From the IMG/VR virus record IMGVR_UViG_3300030102_004953: DNA of 20,000 nt. The stretch is one strand, 5' to 3'. The first letter of the stretch is position 1; each line of letters opens with the position of its first letter. A model generated the notes under the pieces. It did no database searches. It saw only the letters and a program-made list of their open reading frames with translations, and was not told the origin of the DNA. This document shows, in pieces, positions 84-17,845 of the stretch. The position numbers and the translations under genes were made by a program. The DNA comes from an uncultured virus (IMG/VR IMGVR_UViG_3300030102_004953). Lineage: Duplodnaviria > Heunggongvirae > Uroviricota > Caudoviricetes.

Positions 84-307
84 TAATACTCATCTCCATA
101 CAAGCTATATTTCTTTACAGGTTTAGGTGCTATCACACCATCCTCAGTATAAACTTTTCCATCTTTTGCATCTACTACAAATTCTGTAGCTGATGTTTCC
201 ATAAAAATAGCATTTAGAGCATCAGTTAGCGTAGTGTGAATTGTATCATCATTCTCTAACATCCATCTATCACCTGGTGGTACTCTTGTAGCAGCTAGTT
301 GTTTCAT
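83..307 (-). CDS. hypothetical phage protein (74 aa)
   Basis: ORF track; ATGA overlap with upstream gene, GGAGG upstream. Confidence 0.8.
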   Translation of the reverse strand: MKQLAATRVPPGDRWMLENDDTIHTTLTDALNAIFMETSATEFVVDAKDGKVYTEDGVIAPKPVKKYSLYGDEY

Positions 308-1098
308 TTTCTTCCTCCATCAATCATATGTTTAGGTAGTTGGTCATCAAAGTGTCTTTTTATTATTACAACTGGTAAATTAGGATTCATATTACTATAT
401 GCATAAATATCAAATGAGATTACTATTCTCATATCATCGCCAGTTGGTTCCACTCCGTGTTTTAAGTGTGATGGAAATAATACAACATCACCCTCTATTG
501 GTTTTATCTTAACTGATTCTACTCCTACATCACCTGTATTATATTCTTCTTCTATTCTCCTATCGTTTCTCCACAAGTAATCAAATACGTTTAAGTGATT
601 TCTATAAAAACTTAGATTAGGATTATTATTCTTTGGTAACTTAACATAATATATGCCAGATACGCAACCTCCTGTATGGTCGTGTATTGGTATCGCTGTC
701 TTAGCTGATTGTACATTGAACCACGATTTACCTATTACAAAATCTTGATTAATTAAATCAATGTTTAAATCGTATAGATATTTTTCTAAGTGAACATTTA
801 AATTTGAAAACAATTCTAAAAATAATGGGGTTTCTATATTATGTAGTCCACGCACATCTTTGTTATGTTCCATAGGATGTGATGATGAGTATCCAAAGCC
901 AGAAGAGTTGGATAATTGCATATTAGGATTAGCCTCATCTTGTTGGTATATATTATGTAACTCTACTTCTAACTTACTATTTAAATCTGATATAGCTTGT
1001 GGATTAGCTATAGGTTTTCTGTATATAGGATAATCAAATATCTTTGTGTAGACATTTTCATCCAAAGCATCTCTCTCTCCATATTCAAATGTAGGCAT
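304..1098 (-). CDS. 2OG-Fe(II) oxygenase (TIGR02466-like); likely start MPTFEY at 1098
   Basis: SWFN...HDH...SGIYYV...GDVVLFPSHLKHGV...RIVISFD motifs; TAATG coupling at 1098. Confidence 0.85.
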   Translation of the reverse strand: MPTFEYGERDALDENVYTKIFDYPIYRKPIANPQAISDLNSKLEVELHNIYQQDEANPNMQLSNSSGFGYSSSHPMEHNKDVRGLHNIETPLFLELFSNLNVHLEKYLYDLNIDLINQDFVIGKSWFNVQSAKTAIPIHDHTGGCVSGIYYVKLPKNNNPNLSFYRNHLNVFDYLWRNDRRIEEEYNTGDVGVESVKIKPIEGDVVLFPSHLKHGVEPTGDDMRIVISFDIYAYSNMNPNLPVVIIKRHFDDQLPKHMIDGGRK

Positions 1099-1826
1099 TA
1101 GTATATACTCTCTGGTTTCCAATTCCAATTATGTAAAATATAATCCATTTTCCAAAACTTATTTTCTGACATATACCTTAACATATCTTCATTATAATAT
1201 TCCATCAATGGCTTTTTACCAAATCTTTCTTTTGAAGAAAATATATTTTTCTGTTTATCACTATTAGAAAATGAACGAATGTTATCAATATTAAAACTCA
1301 AGTGTGGTAACCCTTTTTGTATTTCAATAAAATCTTCTTTTAGGTACTCTGCCCTTAATAAATAGTTTGGATTTCTGAACCAATTAGATTTTTCTTTACA
1401 AGCATCATAGTAAAATGATATAGGTGAAGCTAGTTCAAATCCAACCGAGAAATCATCCCACTTATCAAGTTCCATATGTATCTCAAAGAACTCAGAAAAC
1501 TCTAAGAACTTTCCTTTACTCCAAGTAAATGTTTTGTAATCTTGTCTATCGTGAAAAACTAAAAAGTAATGTGATAGTAGTCTAGCAGCTGGATGTCTTG
1601 TTGAACACACTATAGTAAAATCCTCAGCACCATCAGGACACAAGTAACCGTGATTAAATTGTCCTACACTATCATTGTATGTAAACATAGTGCCAGCATC
1701 GTAGAATATCTTATGACAATACCTTGAAGCGCACCTATCTGTAGCCCACCATAATAATTTATTAGAGTAGTCTACATTTGTGGGAATCTTGTAATCAGTT
1801 CCCTCTCTTAGAAGAAGAACCGCCAC
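1098..1826 (-). CDS. sulfotransferase family 2-like protein
   Basis: STRHPAARLLSHY matches the R-x-P-x-x-R-x-x-S 3'-phosphate-binding motif; LLRAEYLKEDF downstream motif. Confidence 0.65.
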   Translation of the reverse strand: MAVLLLREGTDYKIPTNVDYSNKLLWWATDRCASRYCHKIFYDAGTMFTYNDSVGQFNHGYLCPDGAEDFTIVCSTRHPAARLLSHYFLVFHDRQDYKTFTWSKGKFLEFSEFFEIHMELDKWDDFSVGFELASPISFYYDACKEKSNWFRNPNYLLRAEYLKEDFIEIQKGLPHLSFNIDNIRSFSNSDKQKNIFSSKERFGKKPLMEYYNEDMLRYMSENKFWKMDYILHNWNWKPESIY

Positions 1827-2502: not shown

Positions 2503-2599
2503 CAAAAACTCCCTTAAATTAATAACTTAGGTATTAGTTTCTCTTTTTATTTTCTTAACTTTTTAAAGTAAATAGTATACAAGTTAAGTTTTATGTTTG

Positions 2600-2671
2600 T
2601 AGCCCGTAGGGGAATCGAACCCCTGTTGCAGGAATGAAAATCCTGAGTCCTAACCACTAGACGAACGGGCC
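2600..2671 (-). tRNA. tRNA-Glu (TTC), CCA not encoded
   Basis: GGCCCGT/ACGGGCT acceptor, CAGGA-TTTTCAT-TCCTG anticodon arm, GGTTCGATTCC T-arm. Confidence 0.96.
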
Positions 2672-2676
2672 AGTAG

Positions 2677-3090
2677 TGGAGCTGGTGGGAATCGAACCCA
2701 CGTCCAAACGCTTTCTCGATGAAGTCATTTACAGCTTAGTTAGTTTCAAATCGGTAGTAACTAACAACCCACCATATCCCCATTTACTCAGATAGGTTTA
2801 ACTGGTAGGGTTTATTGTCTCCCTACATTGACGATCGTGTCTAACTTGTTTTATGACCGAGTGTTAAACAAACTCAGTATCTTATGCAGCGTGTGCGTAA
2901 GATGGTTGAGAAGTACGAGCTGGTTCAATAAATGTATCAAACATACGCTCTGAATTAGCTAGATGCCAATCCACTTTCAACCCTTGTAGCGATTTATCGC
3001 CATTTAGGTTTTGTGAGTCTTATTAAAGAGTCTACTCATACTCTGCTGCACTTCATTGTCAAATAACGCCTGTCGAAACCAGTCAGCCCC
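2677..3090 (-). ncRNA. ssrA: tmRNA (one-piece, 414 nt)
   Basis: 5' GGGGCTGACTGGTTTCGACAGG, 3' GGACGTGGGTTCGATTCCCACCAGCTCCA, G3-U70 alanine determinant, pk1 (AGAGT/ACTCT plus TGAGT/ACTCA), tag frame ending YAHAA-stop. Confidence 0.95.
2882..3001 (-). other. tmRNA tag reading frame: (A)GDKSLQGLKVDWHLANSERMFDTFIEPARTSQPSYAHAA*
   Basis: GGC resume codon 12 nt after pk1, preceded by TAAAT; open 39 codons to TAA. Confidence 0.8.
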
Positions 3091-3094
3091 ATAG

Positions 3095-3167
3095 AGCCAG
3101 AGATAGGATTCGAACCTACGACCTAGTGATTACAAATCACTTGCTCTACCAACTGAGCTACTCTGGC
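3095..3167 (-). tRNA. tRNA-Thr (TGT), CCA not encoded
   Basis: GCCAGAG/CTCTGGC acceptor, AGTGA-TTTGTAA-TCACT anticodon arm, GGTTCGAATCC. Confidence 0.96.
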
Positions 3168-3245
3168 ATAAAGTAGTGGGGAAGTCCTCACGCCCTATTG
3201 TTTGATATTATCGCTCGCCAGTTTGTGGTGTTTATCCACTACTTG

Positions 3246-3318
3246 TGGAGCTGACAGGAGTCGAACCTGCGACCTCCTCCGTGCAAGGGAGGCGCTCTCC
3301 CAACTGAGCTACAGCCCC
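3246..3318 (-). tRNA. tRNA-Ala (TGC), CCA not encoded
   Basis: GGGGCTG/CAGCTCC acceptor with G3-U70, CCTCC-CTTGCAC-GGAGG anticodon arm. Confidence 0.96.
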
Positions 3319-7827: not shown

Positions 7828-7919
7828 CTATAGATTCCTTTTTTTATTTCCTTTAGAAACTTTCTTATATGGTATACGCAAAATGCACCAATTAATATTA
7901 AAGCTATATAATCTATCAT
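7824..7919 (-). CDS. small membrane peptide, 31 aa (MIDYIALILIGAFCVYHIRKFLKEIKKGIYR)
   Basis: translated by hand; ATGA overlaps with both neighbours. Confidence 0.6.
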   Translation of the reverse strand: MIDYIALILIGAFCVYHIRKFLKEIKKGIYR

Positions 7920-8662
7920 TTGTAGTTAATCCCTATATTCCAACTCATACTTAATCTCTCGCCAGGTCCTTTAAATGGATACACCACGTGGTTCAACCAA
8001 GATGGGAATACAGCGAACAAGCCAGGATATGGTACGTGGTGTTGGTTACCATTATAAATAAATTGTCTCATATAATCTGCTGTGCTTGTATCCCATAGTA
8101 GTTCGGTTATACCATCCAGTTTATTCTCATCGAAGTAACCCTTTGGTATCTGCTCAGGTACTTTAAGATGTAAGAAGCCAGATAATGTACTATGGTAGTT
8201 AGAGCTGTGAAAATGTATTGGGTTGTAATCTCCCTCGTATTGATGTACAGTCCACATATCATCGATATGAATATCAAACTTCTCAGGTAATCCACTACCT
8301 AACATCACACCACCACCAAACTCTCTAAAGGAACCTACATACTGATTGGTTGCTTCTATCAATACGTGTACTAGATTCTGTACCATAGGATGTTTCGGGT
8401 CTATCTGTAGTTGTTTACTCTTCGGTGTATCCATCCTACCAACTAAAGCACTATCATAATCCTTACCGTGATTTTCGAAACCACTCCACCTTACAGGATT
8501 TGTTGTGTTCCTCTGCTTACCATCGTGGTAAACATCATCGCACATTTGGATGAGTTCGTTTATAACCTCATCCGTTAAGACTCCCTCTACTATATGGAAT
8601 CGTGGTATGTGTCGTAATGCAAGTTCATCTTTAAGCAAAGACTTCATTTCTACATTCTTCAC
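7916..8662 (-). CDS. 2OG-Fe(II) oxygenase
   Basis: MW...GDYNPIHFH...LSGFLHLKVP...FPSWLNHVVYPF...ERLSMSWN. Confidence 0.88.
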   Translation of the reverse strand: MKNVEMKSLLKDELALRHIPRFHIVEGVLTDEVINELIQMCDDVYHDGKQRNTTNPVRWSGFENHGKDYDSALVGRMDTPKSKQLQIDPKHPMVQNLVHVLIEATNQYVGSFREFGGGVMLGSGLPEKFDIHIDDMWTVHQYEGDYNPIHFHSSNYHSTLSGFLHLKVPEQIPKGYFDENKLDGITELLWDTSTADYMRQFIYNGNQHHVPYPGLFAVFPSWLNHVVYPFKGPGERLSMSWNIGINYK

Positions 8663-10493: not shown

Positions 10494-10531
10494 TTGAGCT
10501 CTTTCTTTTTTATATGCCGCTTAAAATCTTG

Positions 10532-10603
10532 AGCGGTGTGTTGGTACTGCCCCAACCCCTCTTCTATGGAATAGAAGCGTATCTCTCTTGATACTTCCAC
10601 CGC
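10532..10603 (-). tRNA. non-canonical tRNA-Gly (TCC)
   Basis: GCGGTGG-AA-GTAT(CAAGAGAG)ATAC-G-CTTCT(ATTCCAT)AGAAG-AGGG-GTTGG(GGCAGTA)CCAAC-ACACCGC-T; full cloverleaf, U73, but no TTC and no D-loop GG. Confidence 0.8.
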
Positions 10604-10609
10604 ATATGT

Positions 10610-10645
10610 AAATAGTATTAGATTATTCAGAATACTATTTTTTTT
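10610..10645. terminator. AT-rich 10-bp inverted repeat, terminator-like
   Basis: AAATAGTATT/AATACTATTT with a T-run on the plus strand. Confidence 0.4.
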
Positions 10646-10647
10646 AT

Positions 10648-10693
10648 CCGAGCCGCTATGATTCGAACATAGCAGTTATATCTCCACTACTCG
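10648..10693 (-). ncRNA. tRNA-like 12-bp minihelix with T-loop
   Basis: CGAG-(TAGTGGAGATATAA)-CTGCTATG-TTCGAAT-CATAGCGG-CTCG-G. Confidence 0.55.
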
Positions 10694-10694
10694 T

Positions 10695-10893
10695 TAAGCG
10701 TGGTGTGGCAATACAACTTCACCAGCAGCTCACCCCATCGTGTTTAGCTGGATTGTTCTTGAACGACACCACGCTCACATTAGGATTTTTCAAAAATCTT
10801 TGGGTGGTTGGTATTCTTACGATTCACTTAGCCCCGAGGGACCACCCTTATTACGATTACCCATTAGAAGTTGTCTGCTTCCACCACGTGGGT
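10695..10893 (-). ncRNA. multi-hairpin structured RNA of unknown class
   Basis: stems TGAGCGTGGTGT/ACACCACGCTTA, GGGTGGT/ACCACCC, GATTTT/AAAATC, ACCCA/TGGGT plus GGAAG/CTTCT; G-U pairs favour the minus strand. Confidence 0.55.
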
Positions 10894-10903
10894 TTCTCTA
10901 TAG

Positions 10904-11024
10904 AGACAAGATAGGGACTCGAACCCTACAGCTCCTCAAACAAAACTCAAGTAATCAGCTCTTTGTTTCTCAGAACACCACTAGACTCAGAGGGTGATTA
11001 GCCCTCATCAACGCCCGTCTTGCC
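10904..11024 (-). ncRNA. 121-nt tRNA mimic with K-turn and complementary loops
   Basis: GGCAAGA/TCTTGTC acceptor, TAGGG-TTCGAGT-CCCTA T-arm, TGATGA/CTGA K-turn, loops CTAATCA and CTGATTA. Confidence 0.75.
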
Positions 11025-11053
11025 TTTCGAATTCTTCAAATAACTTACCCCCT

Positions 11054-11093
11054 AATATACGCATAAAGCCCCATACGTGTCAAGTCTTTTTTT
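11054..11093 (-). promoter_or_regulatory. repeated sigma70-like promoter, copy 4 (drives the ncRNA cluster)
   Basis: A-tract-GAC-TTGACA-N18-TATATT. Confidence 0.8.
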
Positions 11094-11144
11094 GCTTTAA
11101 CCTAAACTTTTTAGATGCCGCCATCGCACGAGCCTAAAATAGTT

Positions 11145-11184
11145 AAGAAAGTGCTTGACTTGTATTGGGTTTATTTCGTAAATT
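11145..11184 (+). promoter_or_regulatory. same promoter class, the only plus-strand copy seen
   Basis: AAGAAAGTGC-TTGACT-TGTAT..(N18)-TAAATT. Confidence 0.65.
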
Positions 11185-11234
11185 ACGGGTTAAGCCTTAA
11201 ACGCAACGGCTATAGCGCGTGGTATACAAGTTGG

Positions 11235-11273
11235 AATATAATACATATAACCTATACAAGTCAAGTCTTTTTT
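11235..11273 (-). promoter_or_regulatory. repeated sigma70-like promoter, copy 5
   Basis: A-tract-GAC-TTGACT-N18-TATATT. Confidence 0.75.
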
Positions 11274-12059
11274 AGCGGCTCGAATCCCGCGCCATATAGG
11301 TTAGCCGCTCTAAACTATTTAGCTAGGAATACCAACCCAACCCATATGTCAAAATGTCATATATATCTCAGGGCTTCGCGCATAGGGATACGCTATACTT
11401 GCGCAAGCGTGTAACACACTTAATTATTCAGAGTTTTATTCATAGTTATATCAATCTGAGGATATTGAGGTATATGAGAGCGCTGAGATATTGTGTTGTA
11501 TCAAACTCCATATATCAGATTAAGTGGGTAGAAGTGGGTTAATGTGGAATACGTATGGATAGTTACGACAAACCCGATTGAGTGTTTTTCGATGCCAGGA
11601 GTACCCATATTACCTTCAAAAAGGGTGCTTCCTGAGGGTGAAATATATCTCATTAGGGTTGTATTGATTAGCACTCAATCATATATTTGATGAGGTATCT
11701 CACGCAGATGACGAATACTATTGCTAGGAATTCATCGGGGTAGGTGGTTATGAAATATTTGAGGCTTTCGATTAAGCCTTTGATGATGTGTGTATAGTCG
11801 ATAATGTATTATATCGATAAGTGTCGTAGCGTGATAATAAATAGTGTTGGGAATGCTGAAAATGGGATTTGGTGAGAACTTAGATTGTGAGAGTGAACTA
11901 TGGGCTAGAGGATACGGCGTTAGCCGTGTCCATTAGTGTATCTCTTATAAATCTTCTATGTCTCTTTGGAATTTTTGTATTTGCACTAAGCCCCATAGTT
12001 GTATTCCTACTATTAATAACATAATACCTACTAAGGAGCCTAGTACATTTAGTAACATT

Positions 12060-12362
12060 TTAATTAGCAACCGGCTTGTTGGCAGCTTCGTCCTCTTTTG
12101 GCTTACCGCCTGATATAACCACAATCTCTTCCAACTGTTGGTGTTCGTAGCAATAAAAGTAGTGCGTGTTAGTCATACGTAACTTATATAGGTCCTGAAC
12201 AAATACGTGTAACCTACCTCGTTCGTCCTTATAGTTGTAGAGTTTAGACTCTACCTTACTCCTATAATCTATATTCATACCGCTGAATGCTTGTATCGGT
12301 TGAGGAAATGATGAGCAACTGATTGATAGTAATAATGTGAGTGCGATGATAACGTTTTTCAT
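12060..12362 (-). CDS. putative lipoprotein
   Basis: MKN plus hydrophobic core plus SISC lipobox-like; AAGGA RBS. Confidence 0.65.
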   Translation of the reverse strand: MKNVIIALTLLLSISCSSFPQPIQAFSGMNIDYRSKVESKLYNYKDERGRLHVFVQDLYKLRMTNTHYFYCYEHQQLEEIVVISGGKPKEDEAANKPVAN

Positions 12363-12687: not shown

Positions 12688-13392
12688 TCATTTATACCAA
12701 AAAACTTGTGCCAGAGTATACCTTGAGTCTAAATAGTCGTCCGATGGAGCGTTCCCACAATGAGGTATGATAGATTTAAACAAGGCTATTCTGCCTGGCT
12801 TTGGCGTTATACTTTTTATGAGCTTAGCGTCCCTATCATATAAATCCAAGTTCCCCCCATACCAATCTTCCCAATAGTCATTAGCGAAGTAGATTAGCGT
12901 CCATACATTATCATTCTGACTATCTGTATGTGGGTAGCTATGCATTCCTCTAGCTTGTGAGTTTACAACCTGAGAACGTAGGAATACTAAGTCCTCTGAT
13001 ATATTAAAGTGTTCTAGTACCCTACTATAGATGTAGTTACAGGCAAATCTTTTTTCTATGCCGCTATCGTATCTCTCATTGTGTTCACCCTCTTCCCAAG
13101 TTTTAGTCTTTGGATTGACTGAATAGTCCTTGAAGAATGAGTGAACATAACAGGCTACATCTTGTAACCCTAACTCATCGTATACTCTGTCTGGCCATAT
13201 CCTATCCGTTGATTTGTTATAGGATAATCTATTGTACTGCCAATTTATATTATTTCTGATGTGTTCGTAGAAGTTATGGATGAATGTATCATCAAACAAA
13301 TCATCCACTACATAGCAGTCATCTTCTACGTTACCTTGATATGGTGCGTTATCACCTATTTCATTCTGATTGAGTCTCATCATCTTCCTCAT
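12688..13392 (-). CDS. 2OG-Fe(II) oxygenase (prolyl-hydroxylase-like)
   Basis: HTD...TLIYF..W...GG.L...PKPGRIALF...PHCG...RYTLA. Confidence 0.88.
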   Translation of the reverse strand: MRKMMRLNQNEIGDNAPYQGNVEDDCYVVDDLFDDTFIHNFYEHIRNNINWQYNRLSYNKSTDRIWPDRVYDELGLQDVACYVHSFFKDYSVNPKTKTWEEGEHNERYDSGIEKRFACNYIYSRVLEHFNISEDLVFLRSQVVNSQARGMHSYPHTDSQNDNVWTLIYFANDYWEDWYGGNLDLYDRDAKLIKSITPKPGRIALFKSIIPHCGNAPSDDYLDSRYTLAQVFWYK

Positions 13393-14822: not shown

Positions 14823-15749
14823 TTACTCGTGTACAACTGGACATTTACCGTACTTATTATCTTTTGATTTAAACAACTTATAAACACCAAAGAATTTAAG
14901 TAATTTGTGTATTAAAGTCAAGTGTTTTTTGTATTTTTTCCACTTCACTTCTGTTCTTCTCTTTTGCTTGTATATCGTGGAAAATCCACCTCTAAACTCA
15001 TCTAAGTTTAGTTTATTCCAATAATCATCTTCTCCTACCGAATATACCTTCAAATCATAACTTTGTCTCTGAAATACAATAGCCTGTACCATCGGTATTC
15101 CAGCTCTACACCAACCACTCCATCTATCGCCTGATTTCCATACCACAGGAAAATTAACTTCGTGCCACATATCTGTATGAACTAAGCCAGGTAAAACCTC
15201 AAATGGTAAATCAACATCATAGTACGATAGTGGATGAAAGAATAATGTAGATGTGCCAGGTGGTGTTTTGAACGACCAAGGTGAAATAAGCTTAACCGAT
15301 GGTAAACCTGGTGGATTACTAGCAGTTGGTGAACCCCTACCACCCATATAATGTTGTCCTTCAGGATGAATATCTGTTTGAAACCAATGAGCAGAATCAG
15401 CTGCTTTGAATTGGATATGCATCTCTCCAGCATCTTCATTTATAGTTCCCATACTTGGGTCATTGCCACCCTCTTGTCCTATTCCCCAAGCAAAATCAGC
15501 CCAATTTGGTATCATATAGGAATTACCCAATCTAAACAAATCTTGAGCAGCAGGACAAGCTTTTAGTGTCATATCGACACCTTGTACTTTATTCTTACCA
15601 AAACTAAACAAATTATTCTGATAATCTTCTGGCATCCACTTTGGCATCTTATTGAACCATTCTGGTGTTCTAACCTTGTAAGGATGTAGTCCTGCCTTAC
15701 CATATTCCTCACTACATAGGTTATTCCATCTACTATAAAATTCTATCAT
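14823..15749 (-). CDS. conserved aquatic-phage protein (DUF6065-like, tentative)
   Basis: TLKACP...KLISPW..KTPPG.S.LF.HP...LPGLVHTD..HEVNFP...AGIPMVQ pattern. Confidence 0.6.
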   Translation of the reverse strand: MIEFYSRWNNLCSEEYGKAGLHPYKVRTPEWFNKMPKWMPEDYQNNLFSFGKNKVQGVDMTLKACPAAQDLFRLGNSYMIPNWADFAWGIGQEGGNDPSMGTINEDAGEMHIQFKAADSAHWFQTDIHPEGQHYMGGRGSPTASNPPGLPSVKLISPWSFKTPPGTSTLFFHPLSYYDVDLPFEVLPGLVHTDMWHEVNFPVVWKSGDRWSGWCRAGIPMVQAIVFQRQSYDLKVYSVGEDDYWNKLNLDEFRGGFSTIYKQKRRTEVKWKKYKKHLTLIHKLLKFFGVYKLFKSKDNKYGKCPVVHE

Positions 15750-16425
15750 AATCTAACTCTTCATACTCCTTATTCTCATATTTATTCCACCACACATTTC
15801 CATCACCATCATTATAGCACCACGGTAACTTGTCAGTATTAAAAAAGAATACTTGAAACAATCTTTGCTCTGATAATGGGTCTTCCTCTCTTCCCCAATA
15901 GTCTAAACTACTATGGTAGTAAATACCCTCATATACAACACAACGATTGTAAACGTTGCCTAAGAAATCAATTTCTTCCCATTTAGTTTTATCTAACCCA
16001 TCTTTACCAAGTAAATCATCATAATCTTTTTTATTTATGTTTTTGTGATAAAAAGTCTCTAATGATGGTAGCTTATGGGTATTATAACCTTTATGTCTGA
16101 ATATCGATGTACCACCACTCAAAGGAGCGTTTGGTGTTAAATAGACAACAGCAGCACAAGCAGTAGCATCGTGATGTATCCAAGTTCTTTCATCCACATT
16201 AGCGACTTGAAATGCACCATTGTACGTGTTTTCATCATCACCTTTCCGATTCCAATTTTGAATTTTCATTCCAAGTGCTTCTTCAAATTGCTCTTTATGC
16301 TGTTCATTAGCGTATGGTTTAGTTCTTTTGCCCGGATAGTTACCATAAACACTATACGATTGATTTAAGGCAAATTCCCTAACTTCATCTGGATTCTCGT
16401 AAAAATTGTCTATTATTCTAATCAT
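15733..16425 (-). CDS. 2OG-Fe(II) oxygenase (DUF6445-like)
   Basis: IIDNFYENPDEVREFAL...YPGKRT...WIHHD...AAVVYL...GGTS...NVYNR...YHS...RLFQVFF. Confidence 0.85.
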   Translation of the reverse strand: MIRIIDNFYENPDEVREFALNQSYSVYGNYPGKRTKPYANEQHKEQFEEALGMKIQNWNRKGDDENTYNGAFQVANVDERTWIHHDATACAAVVYLTPNAPLSGGTSIFRHKGYNTHKLPSLETFYHKNINKKDYDDLLGKDGLDKTKWEEIDFLGNVYNRCVVYEGIYYHSSLDYWGREEDPLSEQRLFQVFFFNTDKLPWCYNDGDGNVWWNKYENKEYEELDYDRIL

Positions 16426-16643
16426 AACACTAATTTATAGTTTTTCATCTCTTCGTAAAACTCTTCTATAGTATATTTTTCATTGTTTTCTGATACTATT
16501 TTAATTCTTTCTAATATTGGCTCTACTTCGTTTTTAACAAGCTTTTCAAGGTGATACCACCCATCGTAAGCGTAGAATTTCTTAAATGAAACTTCTCCAA
16601 TTTGAATAACGTTATCTTCAGTTAACAATAAATAGTATATCAT
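16422..16643 (-). CDS. hypothetical protein (73 aa)
   Basis: ORF track; ATGA overlaps. Confidence 0.75.
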   Translation of the reverse strand: MIYYLLLTEDNVIQIGEVSFKKFYAYDGWYHLEKLVKNEVEPILERIKIVSENNEKYTIEEFYEEMKNYKLVL

Positions 16644-17845
16644 CGTTCACAAAATATTAAATTTTTAGAATAATCCTCAATTTTGTTTATCTTAAACTTA
16701 AATATATCTAACTCCATAGTTCCAATTTCACCACTATCTTTAATAATATCAGCTAAATTAACTATTATTTGAAAGTTCTCTTGAGTTAATTTTAAAGCAT
16801 CAAACTCCACAGTAATATCATTTGTAAACTCTGAATGATATGCGTGATGTAGTTTCTCTTTCAAATCAAACATCGTGTTAGGTTGTTCGTGTGTTATATA
16901 TGATTCTATCACACCTGTAAATTCACAATACAAATCTGAACACCACGGTTCTAATTCCATCATATGCTTGTAATCACAATTTTTAACTACAAAACCAATA
17001 TCATACTTTGGTGGAACAATAGGCATCATCATAGAATCGTGATTCACATAATGTCCCCATTTACGAATGAAGTTTCGTGTACTTCTCTGATTTTGTTTTA
17101 GCCACTCGTCCGTTTCTCTATTTTTCATAAAAACCTGTCCATCAGGATTTCTGACAGCACCATCCTTAAATCTACTACCACGGCTTGTCATATGATATAC
17201 AAATCCTTGCCAAGTTTGTATCAACTCATAACCATTCAGTAGAAATCTATTAAAGATATCTGAATCTTCCTTTGATTGCGGTGCATACAAAGGATCGTGT
17301 CCGCCTATCTCTTGAAAATCTTTTTTGTATATAGCCCACGGTGCGAATATACCACTTGTTGGTTTTTTAGTTGTATCTGTTTTATTCACGAACTCCATCA
17401 GTTTATGTTCATCAAACTCCTCTGGTTCGATACCACAATCCCAAAGTATTTTTTCAGGACCATCAGGATGTAGTGGTGGCTCTATTCTTGTAGCCGACAC
17501 TACAGTGCCAGGTATCAAGTGTTTTAGAACTTGTCTATCCATATCAGGACAAGCATACATATCAGCGTGATATATCATCACAATATCATTTGTAGCGTAC
17601 TCGTTAACTAACGTATCATATAGAATAGTGTGTCCTAACCTCTCAGGACCTTCGTTTCTGTGTATCTTAACGTTAGGGTCTTTTTTTGCTATCTCTTGCA
17701 TCCATTCCCAAGTACCATCATCTGAAAAATCATCTGCCCAACAAATCTCGTGGTAGTATCCTAAATTCTTTCTGATACTATCATACGACCACTTCAAATA
17801 TTTTAAATTACTTCTACTTGGTTGTATAAAACTAATTGCTTCCAT
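16640..17845 (-). CDS. glycosyltransferase family 2 (GT-A)
   Basis: ADDFSDDGT, HADM (DxD-like), IGGHD, EDSD motifs. Confidence 0.9.
   Translation of the reverse strand: MEAISFIQPSRSNLKYLKWSYDSIRKNLGYYHEICWADDFSDDGTWEWMQEIAKKDPNVKIHRNEGPERLGHTILYDTLVNEYATNDIVMIYHADMYACPDMDRQVLKHLIPGTVVSATRIEPPLHPDGPEKILWDCGIEPEEFDEHKLMEFVNKTDTTKKPTSGIFAPWAIYKKDFQEIGGHDPLYAPQSKEDSDIFNRFLLNGYELIQTWQGFVYHMTSRGSRFKDGAVRNPDGQVFMKNRETDEWLKQNQRSTRNFIRKWGHYVNHDSMMMPIVPPKYDIGFVVKNCDYKHMMELEPWCSDLYCEFTGVIESYITHEQPNTMFDLKEKLHHAYHSEFTNDITVEFDALKLTQENFQIIVNLADIIKDSGEIGTMELDIFKFKINKIEDYSKNLIFCER

What the first reader, a model, noticed from the sequence alone, without database searches (positions are those of the whole stretch)
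2882..3001. Phage tmRNA with an exceptionally long 39-residue tag peptide
Seen: pk1 is followed by CAAAACCTAAAT and a GGC codon, then an uninterrupted frame GDKSLQGLKVDWHLANSERMFDTFIEPARTSQPSYAHAA-TAA. Known: the resume codon sits about 11-12 nt after pk1, the E. coli tag encodes 10 residues, and C-terminal YALAA-type ends are ClpXP degrons. Here the canonical G-D start and YAHAA end are kept but roughly 30 extra residues lie between them. Inference: the insert may be an adaptor or docking motif that redirects rescued proteins, or it may let the phage alter host trans-translation. No smpB is in this window.
Basis: partly seen in the sequence, partly recalled or inferred. Interest (0 to 1): 0.78.

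Follow-up and report, generated by a model that had tools for sequence, protein, structure and literature searches.

The report
Marine phage tmRNA with long tag
A marine phage carries its own ribosome-rescue RNA (tmRNA) whose peptide tag is about four times the E. coli length, and dozens of related phages keep the same tag as a peptide, so it is almost certainly made and used, though what reads it is unknown.

Summary
Window 2674-3090 (minus strand) is a full-length one-piece tmRNA (Rfam 107.8 bits), packed between tRNA-Glu and tRNA-Thr in a phage-like gene neighbourhood. After pseudoknot 1 and a 12-nt spacer, GGC (3001-2999) opens 39 sense codons that end at TAA (2884-2882).

The long frame is not chance. 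A clade marker taken from outside the tag recovered 78 distinct relatives from viral and metagenome collections. All 78 keep an open frame of 35-43 codons, and none is stop-free in either other frame.
- **Selection:** 39 independent pairs give pN/pS 0.46 (P = 2e-22), against 1.08 and 1.15 in the shifted frames.
- **Where it acts:** selection is seen from codon 5 onward. Codons 1-4 look constrained as an RNA hairpin instead.
- **Shared features:** a motif S-L-x-G-L-x-[IV]-D-W-H-L-A and an end Q-P-x-Y-A-Y-A(A).

A review gives 8-35 residues as the known tag range. ARAGORN misses or mis-starts these genes. No SmpB, ClpP, Lon or SspB was found in five related phage records.

This scan noted the same family earlier on other DNA (e1-5342295). 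My literature searches found no published description.

The parts
2674..3090 (-). One-piece tmRNA gene (417 nt)
   Evidence: Rfam RF00023, 107.8 bits, E 1.1e-41, model 1-374 of 374. A near-identical copy at L138 gives the same score and has the same flanking tRNAs.
3072..3090 (-). 5' acceptor strand and D-loop region of the tRNA-like domain (tmRNA nt 1-19); G3 pairs with U411 (the G-U pair that alanyl-tRNA synthetase recognises)
   Evidence: Read directly: 5' GGGGCUG pairs with 3' CAGCUCC, which gives G3-U411. T411 is invariant in the 13-sequence alignment A1.
3014..3044 (-). Pseudoknot 1 (stem 1 AGAGU/ACUCU, stem 2 UGAGU/ACUCA)
   Evidence: Sequence. Stem 2 is paired in 72-78 of 78 family members at each of its 5 positions, with G-C to A-U exchanges at two positions. 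My column count for stem 1 is unreliable because loop lengths shift the register.
3002..3013 (-). 12-nt single-stranded spacer CAAAACCUAAAU, with U at -5 and A at -4 from the resume codon
   Evidence: A at -4 in 77 of 78 members; the one exception fits if its tag starts one codon earlier, at AGC. In E. coli the spacer is 11 nt and the frame is set four nucleotides downstream of A86 (PMC2481249, passages).
2885..3001 (-). Tag reading frame: 39 codons, GGC resume codon to GCA
   Evidence: Conserved and under purifying selection.
2882..2884 (-). Tag stop codon TAA
   Evidence: Family stop codons: TAA 68, TAG 10 of 78.
2989..3000 (-). Mini-hairpin GCGA-UAAA-UCGC overlapping tag codons 1-5
   Evidence: All four pairs are formed in 26 of 27 IMG/VR-plus-window members. 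It explains the low synonymous change in codons 1-4. A comparable helix around the E. coli resume codon is proposed in PMC2481249.
2957..2992 (-). Conserved peptide motif S-L-Q-G-L-K-V-D-W-H-L-A (tag residues 4-15)
   Evidence: Invariant L5, G7, L8, D11, W12 and nearly invariant S4, H13, A15 in alignment A2. Codons 5-10 give pN/pS 0.34, P = 3.3e-6; codons 1-16 give 0.34, P = 3e-13.
2951..2973 (-). Predicted RNA hairpin over the D-W-H-L-A-N codons (9 bp in the window; 5-bp core at 2955-2969)
   Evidence: RNAfold. The 5-bp core is paired in 25-27 of 27 members, with one-sided changes only. The outer four pairs hold in only 9-17 of 27.
2885..2908 (-). C-terminal end of the tag, Q-P-S-Y-A-H-A-A (putative protease degron)
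   Evidence: Last 10 alignment columns give pN/pS 0.32, P = 2.2e-5. The Ala codons use 3-4 synonymous codons. Among the 58 metagenome tags the last four residues are YAYA in 31 and AYAA in 8.
2839..2878 (-). Pseudoknot 2 (stems ACUGAG/CUCGGU and GUUUAAC/GUUAGAC), starting 3 nt after the stop codon
   Evidence: 69-75 of 75 members are paired at each of the 13 positions, with 2-4 standard pair types per position, i.e. compensatory changes.
2674..2705 (-). T-arm and 3' acceptor strand; the 3' CCA is not encoded (the gene ends ACUA)
   Evidence: Rfam alignment with posterior '*' throughout; invariant columns.
2599..2671 (-). tRNA-Glu(UUC), 2 nt downstream of the tmRNA
   Evidence: ARAGORN; Rfam tRNA 62.6 bits.
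3094..3167 (-). tRNA-Thr(UGU), 3 nt upstream of the tmRNA
   Evidence: ARAGORN; Rfam 75.6 bits.
3245..3318 (-). tRNA-Ala(UGC), same strand, same cluster
   Evidence: ARAGORN; Rfam 69.8 bits.

Best explanation
This is a working one-piece tmRNA of an uncultured marine phage, probably T4-like.

Inferred expression and processing: it is transcribed within a tRNA cluster, cut out by the host's tRNA-processing enzymes, given CCA and charged with alanine.

Inferred action: with the host's SmpB it enters stalled ribosomes. Translation resumes at GGC, 12 nt after PK1, and runs through all 39 codons. Rescued chains therefore receive a tag of about 40 residues.

Shown by comparison: the tag is a peptide signal in three parts.
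1. A conserved linear motif near the start, S-L-x-G-L-x-[IV]-D-W-H-L-A.
2. A variable, mostly acidic and hydrophobic linker of changing length.
3. A conserved end, Q-P-x-Y-A-Y-A(A).

Inferred function: the Ala-rich end is the degron for a host AAA+ protease. The inner motif is a second recognition site for an adaptor or a different protease, much as SspB assists ClpXP on the E. coli tag or as Lon reads the long Mycoplasma tag.

My odds: the long frame is translated, about 0.9; the tag is a degradation signal, about 0.6; the inner motif is a docking site, about 0.4.
For: - **tmRNA identity:** full-length Rfam match, G3-U411 pair and T-arm, and PK1 stem 2 and PK2 supported across the family, with compensatory changes in PK2.
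- **Resume site:** Rfam aligns GGC to the consensus resume codon. The spacer is 12 nt against 11 nt in E. coli, and A lies at -4 in 77 of 78 members, matching the A86 ruler. In L009 a TAA lies two codons upstream of GGC, so the tag frame there opens only at AAT, the codon just before GGC, and the tag cannot start further upstream.
- **Unbiased frame test:** a marker outside the tag (GGTTTCGAC-N9-TTGAYAA-N4-GTGCA) gave 36 IMG/VR loci. With the window that makes 27 distinct sequences, and 27 of 27 keep the long frame. The metagenome scan gave 80 listed loci. Fourteen were too short and were dropped, leaving 66 loci and 59 distinct sequences. All 59 have one frame open across the span, and 58 of 59 carry the motif. 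The odd one, L151, is not a tmRNA by Rfam.
- **Combined set:** 78 distinct sequences with tags of 35-43 codons. None of the 78 is stop-free in frame +1 or +2.
- **Selection (39 independent pairs):** whole tag pN/pS 0.46 (P = 1.9e-22); codons 5-10 0.34 (P = 3.3e-6); codons 17 to the end 0.53 (P = 2.6e-11); shifted frames 1.08 and 1.15.
- **Codon detail:** between the window and L008, an Arg codon changes from CGT to AGA while staying Arg.
- **Expression:** contigs from RNA libraries of 4 studies carry the tag region with 0-1 differences. This fits expression but does not prove it.
- **Peptide type:** AlphaFold gives a disordered peptide with one helical turn at W-H-L, mean pLDDT 58, as expected for a linear motif.
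- **Precedent:** the 27-residue M. pneumoniae tag, rich in hydrophobic and aromatic residues, is read mainly by Lon (PMC8403727, passages).
Against: - No tagging, charging or degradation has been measured.
- Codons 1-4 show no peptide-level selection (pN/pS 1.63), so the exact first codon rests on geometry alone.
- Part of the motif's nucleotide conservation could be RNA structure. A mini-hairpin covers codons 1-5 and a 5-bp hairpin core covers the W-H-L-A-N codons. Synonymous change in codons 1-10 is lower than further on.
- No reader was found. There is no SmpB, ClpP, Lon_C or SspB in 5 related phage records, one of them 100% complete, and no consistently linked neighbour gene.
- The host is unknown, so its proteases cannot be named.
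- Of the 14 library proteins I read, P0026 loses the tag frame after about 21 residues and P0001 reads past the usual stop. These may be sequencing errors or real broken copies.
- Rfam was run on only 4 of the 80 metagenome loci. One of them, L118, which is cut by its contig end, was not called although it carries the motif.
Confidence: 0.6

Rival explanations
1. The long tag is translated, but it is not simply a degradation signal. The conserved inner motif gives rescued chains another fate in the infected cell. It might shield them from the host's ClpXP, occupy or slow a host protease, or bind them to a phage or host structure. The Ala-rich end would then be an inherited remnant or a secondary signal.
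For: The motif is as strongly selected as the C-terminal end (codons 1-16 pN/pS 0.34; last 10 columns 0.32). It matches no known protein family among 1.84 billion proteins. The clade marker was found in only one of the 185,579 species' genomes scanned, on a 7.5-kb MAG contig (L070), so the tag looks like a phage invention. Other phage tmRNAs fetched here also have long tags of different sequence (27 residues in L001, 19 in L011).
Against: The end Y-A-Y-A(A) is conserved and resembles ordinary Ala-rich tag ends. The simplest reading of any tmRNA tag is a degron. No candidate partner was found.
Confidence: 0.25
2. Translation resumes at a downstream in-frame codon, as ARAGORN proposes for L019, L025 and L028, and gives an ordinary 14-23 residue tag. 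The first third of the frame would then be conserved only as RNA structure.
For: ARAGORN chose internal in-frame starts in 3 of 12 loci. Two conserved hairpins lie in the first 50 nt of the frame. Codons 1-4 show no peptide-level selection.
Against: Codons 5-10 give pN/pS 0.34 (P = 3.3e-6) and codons 1-16 give 0.34 (P = 3e-13). Leu5 uses three synonymous codons, and codon 10 stays I or V across four codons. The outer four pairs of the window's hairpin are not conserved. A at -4 and the PK1 spacing fit GGC. ARAGORN's internal starts differ from locus to locus and have no PK1 spacing. It fails outright on 9 of those 12 loci and on the window, which looks like a tag-length limit of the program.
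Confidence: 0.07
3. The true tag is the short +1 frame that starts at GCG (Ala), for example AINRYKG-stop in the window. The long frame would then be open by accident.
For: GCN is the Rfam consensus resume codon. The +1 frame starts one base after GGC and ends after 7-13 codons in the members examined. A also lies at -4 from GCG in most members, because of the A run in the spacer.
Against: Frame +1 shows no purifying selection: pN/pS 1.08 overall and 1.95 in its first 10 codons. Its stop position and its last residues (G, K, I) are not conserved. It cannot explain selection on the 0 frame up to the conserved Y-A-Y-A-stop. In L007/L043 only the long-frame start keeps A at -4.
Confidence: 0.03
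4. The phage tmRNA serves only to add ribosome-rescue capacity, or to compete for host SmpB, and the content of the tag is functionally neutral.
For: Reviews and phage papers suggest that extra rescue capacity is the benefit of a phage tmRNA (PMC9004378 and PMC12656738, passages). [quoted passage not shown]
Against: A neutral tag would not show pN/pS 0.46 with P = 2e-22, five invariant motif residues (plus one near the C-terminal end) and only in-frame length changes across 78 sequences.
Confidence: 0.05

Closest known systems
Canonical bacterial one-piece tmRNA (SsrA, Rfam RF00023), e.g. E. coli
   Same: tRNA-like domain with the G3-U pair, PK1, a short A-rich spacer with A at -4, a tag frame without a start codon, an Ala-rich hydrophobic end, an in-frame stop, and pseudoknots downstream.
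   Different: The tag has 39 codons (35-43 in the family), against 10 encoded residues in E. coli and a stated range of 8-35. It has a conserved inner motif with no known counterpart. The stop codon lies 3 nt before PK2. The gene is carried by a phage without SmpB.
Long tmRNA tag of Mycoplasma pneumoniae (27 residues), read by Lon
   Same: An unusually long tag, rich in hydrophobic and aromatic residues, in which more than the last few residues matter. It shows that tag length can go with a change of protease (PMC8403727, passages).
   Different: There is no sequence likeness. The Mycoplasma tag is chromosomal, in a host that lacks ClpXP and adaptors. Here the tag is longer, carried by a phage, and the host's proteases are unknown.
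Phage-encoded tmRNAs already described (mycobacteriophages such as Bxz1, Bacillus phage G, OM43 phage Melnitz and pelagimyophages)
   Same: A tmRNA gene in a large lytic phage, without SmpB and often among tRNA genes. 402 of 18,146 phage genomes have one (PMC9004378; PMC4131195).
   Different: The passages I read say nothing about tag length or conserved tag motifs. Melnitz has a two-piece tmRNA; this one is one-piece. blastn of this tmRNA against 50,697 phage records found no match.
Two-site recognition of the E. coli ssrA tag by the adaptor SspB together with ClpXP
   Same: It is the model for a tag with two separate signals, an inner adaptor site and a C-terminal protease site (PMC8403727 introduction). 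Phages do interfere here: phage Pf16 encodes an SspB-like protein (PMC5587285).
   Different: No SspB was found in the related phage records. The motif here is unrelated in sequence and lies about 20-28 residues from the end instead of directly beside it.

Membership tests
tmRNA (RF00023) | Covariance-model match over the whole model above the curated score | tested here: met
   107.8 bits against a cut-off of 47, model positions 1-374.
tmRNA (RF00023) | tRNA-like domain: 7-bp acceptor stem with a G3-U pair, T-arm, discriminator A | tested here: met
   GGGGCUG pairs with CAGCUCC, giving G3-U411 and A414. The T-arm is aligned with top posterior probability. CCA is not encoded.
tmRNA (RF00023) | PK1 followed by a short single-stranded spacer, with the frame-setting A four nucleotides before the resume codon | tested here: met
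   12-nt spacer and A at -4 in 77 of 78 members. PK1 stem 2 is paired in 72-78 of 78. The rule comes from PMC2481249. The count for PK1 stem 1 is unreliable.
tmRNA (RF00023) | Tag frame without a start codon, ending in hydrophobic or Ala-rich residues and an in-frame stop, conserved as the best reading frame | tested here: met
   pN/pS 0.46 against 1.08 and 1.15 in the other frames; ends Y-A-Y-A(A); stops TAA or TAG.
tmRNA (RF00023) | Pseudoknots downstream of the tag | tested here: met
   PK2: 69-75 of 75 paired per position, with compensatory changes. PK3 and PK4 were not examined separately; Rfam aligns that region with low posterior probability.
tmRNA (RF00023) | Tag length within the described range (8-35 residues); a typical feature, not a defining one | tested here: not met
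   39 codons here and 35-43 in the family; range from PMC8012679. This makes it a variant, not a non-member.
tmRNA (RF00023) | Works with SmpB, is charged with alanine and tags stalled chains | not testable with these tools
   No SmpB in the window or in 5 related records, so host SmpB would be needed. No biochemical data exist.
ClpXP-type ssrA degron | C-terminal hydrophobic-Ala-Ala end recognised by ClpX | tested here: inconclusive
   The window ends H-A-A. Most family members end Y-A-Y-A, some A-Y-A-A, others H-V-Y-A or Y-A-N-A. The ends are Ala-rich but mostly not of the E. coli L-A-A form. The host ClpX is unknown.
Lon-read long tag (Mycoplasma type) | Long tag enriched in hydrophobic and aromatic residues, read by Lon in a host without ClpXP or adaptors | tested here: inconclusive
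   Length and aromatic content fit (W12, F21, F24, Y35 in the window). There is no sequence likeness, and the host's protease set is unknown (for the comparison).

The most novel reading that the evidence does not exclude
The invariant L-x-G-L-x-[IV]-D-W-H-L-A motif is the docking site of a dedicated reader, either a phage protein of unknown family or a host factor other than the usual tag machinery. In infected cells, unfinished proteins rescued by the phage tmRNA would then be routed differently from chains tagged by the host. That would amount to a phage-specific proteolysis or sorting code written into a tmRNA.
Probability: 0.3. Interest if true: 0.8.

Novelty: new variant of a known kind. 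Interest (0 to 1): 0.62.

Why it matters
tmRNA tags are usually treated as short, simple "destroy me" signals.

Here a whole clade of marine phage tmRNAs, at least 78 distinct sequences, carries a tag above the published length range. The tag includes an inner motif under purifying selection that matches no known protein family.

- **If the motif is a second recognition site:** phages would control the fate of unfinished proteins during infection. The tag would also be a ready-made two-signal degron for study and for synthetic biology.
- **Practical point:** the standard annotator, ARAGORN, misses or mis-frames these genes. Phage tmRNAs with long tags are therefore probably under-counted in surveys that rely on it.

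Tried and rejected
- **Close relatives in GenBank phages:** blastn of the tmRNA and megablast of the whole window found only tRNA-sized matches.
- **Own genome:** none is held for this window.
- **Lon degron likeness:** I recalled a likeness between L-x-G-L-K-[IV] and the SulA Lon degron. I dropped it because that degron depends on a C-terminal His, which these tags lack (PMC11986505, Table 1).
- **A reader encoded by the phage:** no SmpB, ClpP, Lon_C or SspB in 5 related records. These records may be fragments; only one is complete.
- **A linked neighbour gene:** only a small DUF7717 gene recurs near the tmRNA, in 4 of 5 records, and its position and orientation vary.
- **Motif in real proteins:** the profile search of 1.84 billion proteins gave 33 hits. 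Thirty are 33-81 aa, and all 12 of those that I read are ORFs laid over tmRNA genes. The three longer, weaker hits (149-977 aa) match in several stretches, and the two of them that I read are repeat proteins.
- **Fold of the tag:** the model has mean pLDDT 58 and no fold, so I ran no fold search.
- **Host via an isolated phage:** the window's glycosyltransferase is 48% identical to one in Flavobacterium phage immuto, but that phage has no tmRNA. The host remains unknown.
- **Promoter and terminator scan around the cluster:** no more sites than in shuffles.
- **RNA-run coverage:** parts of the stretch without cover in the RNA contigs cannot be used as evidence. No molecule ends were detected.
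- **PK1 stem 1 pair count:** unreliable because of register shifts.
- **Complex prediction:** not run. No host partner is known, and a stand-in from another host would say little.
- **Papers:** PMC2570983 (Gur and Sauer 2008) is not held, so I used PMC8403727 instead.
- **Searches for a prior description of long phage tmRNA tags:** I judged these from the listings and from passages of five of the listed papers (PMC9004378, PMC4131195, PMC8012679, PMC5587285, PMC12656738). None describes such tags. I did not open supplementary files, which might list phage tags.
Full report
**What is in the window**

Rfam finds a full-length tmRNA on the minus strand at 2674-3090. It scores 107.8 bits against a gathering score of 47 and covers model positions 1-374. 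It lies 3 nt downstream of tRNA-Thr (3094-3167) and 2 nt upstream of tRNA-Glu (2599-2671). tRNA-Ala (3245-3318) lies further upstream, and all four genes are on the minus strand.

The RNA strand shows the expected parts:
- a 7-bp acceptor stem with a G3-U411 pair;
- a T-arm;
- PK1 at tmRNA nt 47-77;
- a 12-nt spacer, CAAAACCUAAAU;
- GGC at nt 90.

From GGC the frame runs for 39 codons, GDKSLQGLKVDWHLANSERMFDTFIEPARTSQPSYAHAA, to TAA. ARAGORN finds the three tRNAs but not the tmRNA.

**The setting is a phage**

The window is about 34% G+C. It encodes three proteins with 2OG-Fe(II) oxygenase Pfam domains, a fourth (14823-15749) matching a PHROG of unknown function that may be related, an HNH endonuclease, a family-2 glycosyltransferase, an HhH-GPD protein and several PHROG families. 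No genome is held for it, and it has no close relative among 50,697 GenBank phage records. No SmpB appears among the 37 ORFs scanned.

**Is the long frame real?**

I first searched IMG/VR with the exact 5' 19-mer. That gave 17 loci, all with Rfam tmRNA matches. Four of them (L007 = L013, L008, L009) carry the same long frame in the same place. Their tags are 36-38 codons long and share a G-L-x-[IV]-D-W-H-L core and a Q-P-x-x-A-x-A end.

A second scan required the D-W-H-L codons and is therefore biased. So I chose a clade marker that lies wholly outside the tag, in the helix-2 and PK1 approach: GGTTTCGAC-N9-TTGAYAA-N4-GTGCA.

| Collection | Loci | Distinct sequences | Result |
|---|---|---|---|
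| IMG/VR plus the window | 36 + 1 | 27 | 27 of 27 keep the long open frame |
| 185,579 species' genomes | 1 | 1 | one 7.5-kb MAG contig (L070) |

The metagenome exception, L151, is open for 369 nt in one frame and has no tmRNA by Rfam, so it is a chance match. Rfam was run on only 4 of the 80 metagenome loci. It called L138 and L082. It did not call L118, which carries the motif but is cut by its contig end.

The combined set holds 78 distinct sequences.

| Tag length (codons) | 35 | 36 | 37 | 38 | 39 | 40 | 41 | 42 | 43 |
|---|---|---|---|---|---|---|---|---|---|
| Sequences | 7 | 6 | 11 | 32 | 6 | 1 | 3 | 9 | 3 |

All length differences are whole codons. None of the 78 is free of stops in frame +1 (1-5 stops) or in frame +2 (1-8 stops) over the same span.

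**Selection on the peptide**

I chose 39 phylogenetically independent pairs by the similarity of the non-tag RNA.

| Region | pN/pS | P |
|---|---|---|
| Whole tag | 0.46 | 1.9e-22 |
| Codons 1-4 | 1.63 | not significant |
| Codons 5-10 | 0.34 | 3.3e-6 |
| Codons 1-16 | 0.34 | 3e-13 |
| Codons 17 to the end | 0.53 | 2.6e-11 |
| Frame +1 (control) | 1.08 | not significant |
| Frame +2 (control) | 1.15 | not significant |

A smaller analysis of 13 pairs gave the same picture. Codon by codon:
- Leu5 uses CTA, CTC and CTT, and Leu8 uses TTG and TTA.
- Codon 10 stays I or V across four codons.
- One Arg codon changes from CGT to AGA or AGG while staying Arg.
- The terminal Ala codons use three or four synonymous codons.

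In alignment A2 of 25 tags, the invariant residues are L5, G7, L8, D11, W12 and A38. S4, H13, A15 and A36 are nearly invariant.

**Where translation starts**

Four observations point to GGC as the resume codon.
- Rfam aligns GGC to the consensus resume codon.
- In E. coli the spacer after PK1 is 11 nt, and the frame is set four nucleotides downstream of A86 (PMC2481249, passages). Here the spacer is 12 nt.
- A lies at -4 in 77 of 78 members. The exception, L043, conforms if its tag starts one codon earlier, at AGC.
- In L009 a TAA lies two codons upstream of GGC, so its tag frame opens only at AAT, the codon just before GGC. The start cannot lie further upstream.

Family resume codons are GGC in 62, AGC in 8, GCC in 6, and GGT and GAA in one each.

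Codons 1-4 vary as amino acids but hardly at synonymous sites. They sit in a mini-hairpin, GCGA-loop-UCGC, which is formed in 26 of 27 members. A comparable helix around the E. coli resume codon is proposed in PMC2481249. The exact first codon is therefore inferred from geometry. Translation from codon 5 onward is supported by selection.

**Rival readings**

- *A +1 frame from GCG.* It would give short tags such as AINRYKG-stop. It shows no selection (1.08 overall, 1.95 in its first ten codons), and its stop position and last residues vary.
- *A downstream in-frame start.* ARAGORN picks one in 3 of 12 loci. This cannot explain selection on codons 5-16.
- *RNA structure alone.* RNAfold predicts a 9-bp hairpin over the D-W-H-L-A-N codons of the window. 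Its 5-bp core is kept in 25-27 of 27 members, with one-sided changes only. The outer four pairs hold in only 9-17 of 27. RNA structure probably adds constraint in the first third of the tag, which fits the lower synonymous divergence there. It does not replace the peptide signal.

**Other tmRNA features**

PK1 stem 2 is paired in 72-78 of 78 members. Both PK2 stems are paired in 69-75 of 75, with 2-4 pair types per position. My count for PK1 stem 1 is unreliable because loop lengths shift the alignment register. PK2 begins 3 nt after the stop codon.

**What could read the tag**

- Five related phage records, one of them 216 kb and 100% complete, hold exactly one tmRNA above the Rfam cut-off.
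- The same five records have no SmpB, ClpP, Lon_C or SspB. The tmRNA must use the host's SmpB, and any reader is a host factor or an unrecognised phage protein.
- No neighbour gene is consistently linked to the tmRNA.
- A profile of the tags against 1.84 billion proteins gave 33 hits. Thirty are 33-81 aa long, and all 12 of those that I read are ORFs laid over tmRNA genes. The three longer, weaker hits (149-977 aa) match in several stretches, and the two of them that I read are unrelated repeat proteins.
- Among the proteins I read, P0026 loses the tag frame after about 21 residues, P0001 reads 18 residues past the usual stop, and P0028 looks like a 52-codon variant with a different end. These are the only exceptions I saw, and I could not check their DNA.
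- AlphaFold predicts no fold for the tag (mean pLDDT 58, one helical turn at W-H-L), as expected for a linear motif.

**Expression**

Six RNA-library runs from four studies hold a third to a half of the sampled words of the 720-nt stretch. I laid one run from each study. All four have contigs covering the tag region with 0-1 differences: 332 nt in X15, 297 nt in X17, two of 151 nt in X18 and 255 nt in X19. These are contigs, and RNA libraries can contain DNA, so this is compatible with expression but does not prove it.

**Comparison with what is known**

- A review gives tag lengths of 8-35 amino acids (PMC8012679, section 5). This family lies at or above the top of that range.
- The best-known long tag is the 27-residue M. 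pneumoniae tag, which is rich in hydrophobic and aromatic residues and is read mainly by Lon (PMC8403727, passages).
- Phage tmRNAs are known from mycobacteriophages and Bacillus phage G (PMC4131195). They occur in 402 of 18,146 phage genomes, and phage Melnitz has a two-piece form (PMC9004378).
- None of the passages I read, and none of the listings, mention long conserved phage tags. I did not open supplementary files.
- This scan noted the same family earlier on other DNA. Finding e1-5342295 shares words with family member L050, and it reached the same conclusion.

**Verdict**

The gene is a member of the tmRNA family with an unusual, conserved, long tag in three parts. The most likely mechanism is a two-site degradation signal, with an Ala-rich end plus an inner docking motif, that works with host SmpB and host proteases. 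Only the translation of the frame is well supported. The role of the motif is inferred.

Noticed in passing
window 10500-12060: An ORF-poor stretch of about 1.5 kb inside an otherwise tightly packed minus-strand gene array. Its G+C is higher (about 38-42% against about 33% nearby). It has no Rfam match at E <= 0.1 and no blastn match in GenBank phages.
   Followed up: partly
window 2599-3318; L001-L033: ARAGORN misses this tmRNA. In the first set it missed 4 of 17 tmRNAs, and in the second set it missed 9 of 12. Where it did call a family member, it chose another frame (L009) or an internal in-frame start (L019, L025, L028). Surveys of phage tmRNAs built on ARAGORN will therefore under-count or mis-describe long-tag forms.
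   Followed up: yes
L001:346-719 (-); L011:336-719 (-): Other phage tmRNAs that share the same 5' 19-mer have long tags of unrelated sequence: 27 residues ending AMAA in L001 and 19 residues ending AIAA in L011. Long tags may therefore have arisen more than once in phages.
   Followed up: no
L004:191-363 (+); L010:282-454 (+): A manA RNA motif (RF01745, 60.8 and 64.2 bits) lies just upstream of short-tag phage tmRNAs in two viral contigs.
   Followed up: no
L012:505-839 (-): A permuted (two-piece) tmRNA in a viral contig contains the same 19-base 5' sequence as the window's one-piece tmRNA.
   Followed up: no
window 16640-17845 (-): The family-2 glycosyltransferase is 48% identical over its full length to one in Flavobacterium phage vB_FspM_immuto, a 160-kb myovirus. 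That phage has no tmRNA by Rfam. This is only a weak hint of a Bacteroidota host.
   Followed up: partly
window 304-1128, 7916-8662, 12688-13392, 14823-15749, 15733-16425 (all -): A cluster of 2OG-Fe(II) oxygenase paralogues and related DUF6445 and PHROG proteins, typical of marine T4-like phages.
   Followed up: no
window about 3011 (run X17, record 10): One RNA-library contig is identical to the window from 2715 to 3011 and then continues with a different PK1 sequence, like that of family member L008. This suggests mosaic variants or recombination at the boundary between PK1 and the tag.
   Followed up: no
P0001, P0026, P0028 (library proteins): Family variants seen only as predicted proteins: one reads 18 residues past the usual stop, one loses the frame after about 21 tag residues, and one has a 52-codon tag with a different end. 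Their DNA was not examined.
   Followed up: no
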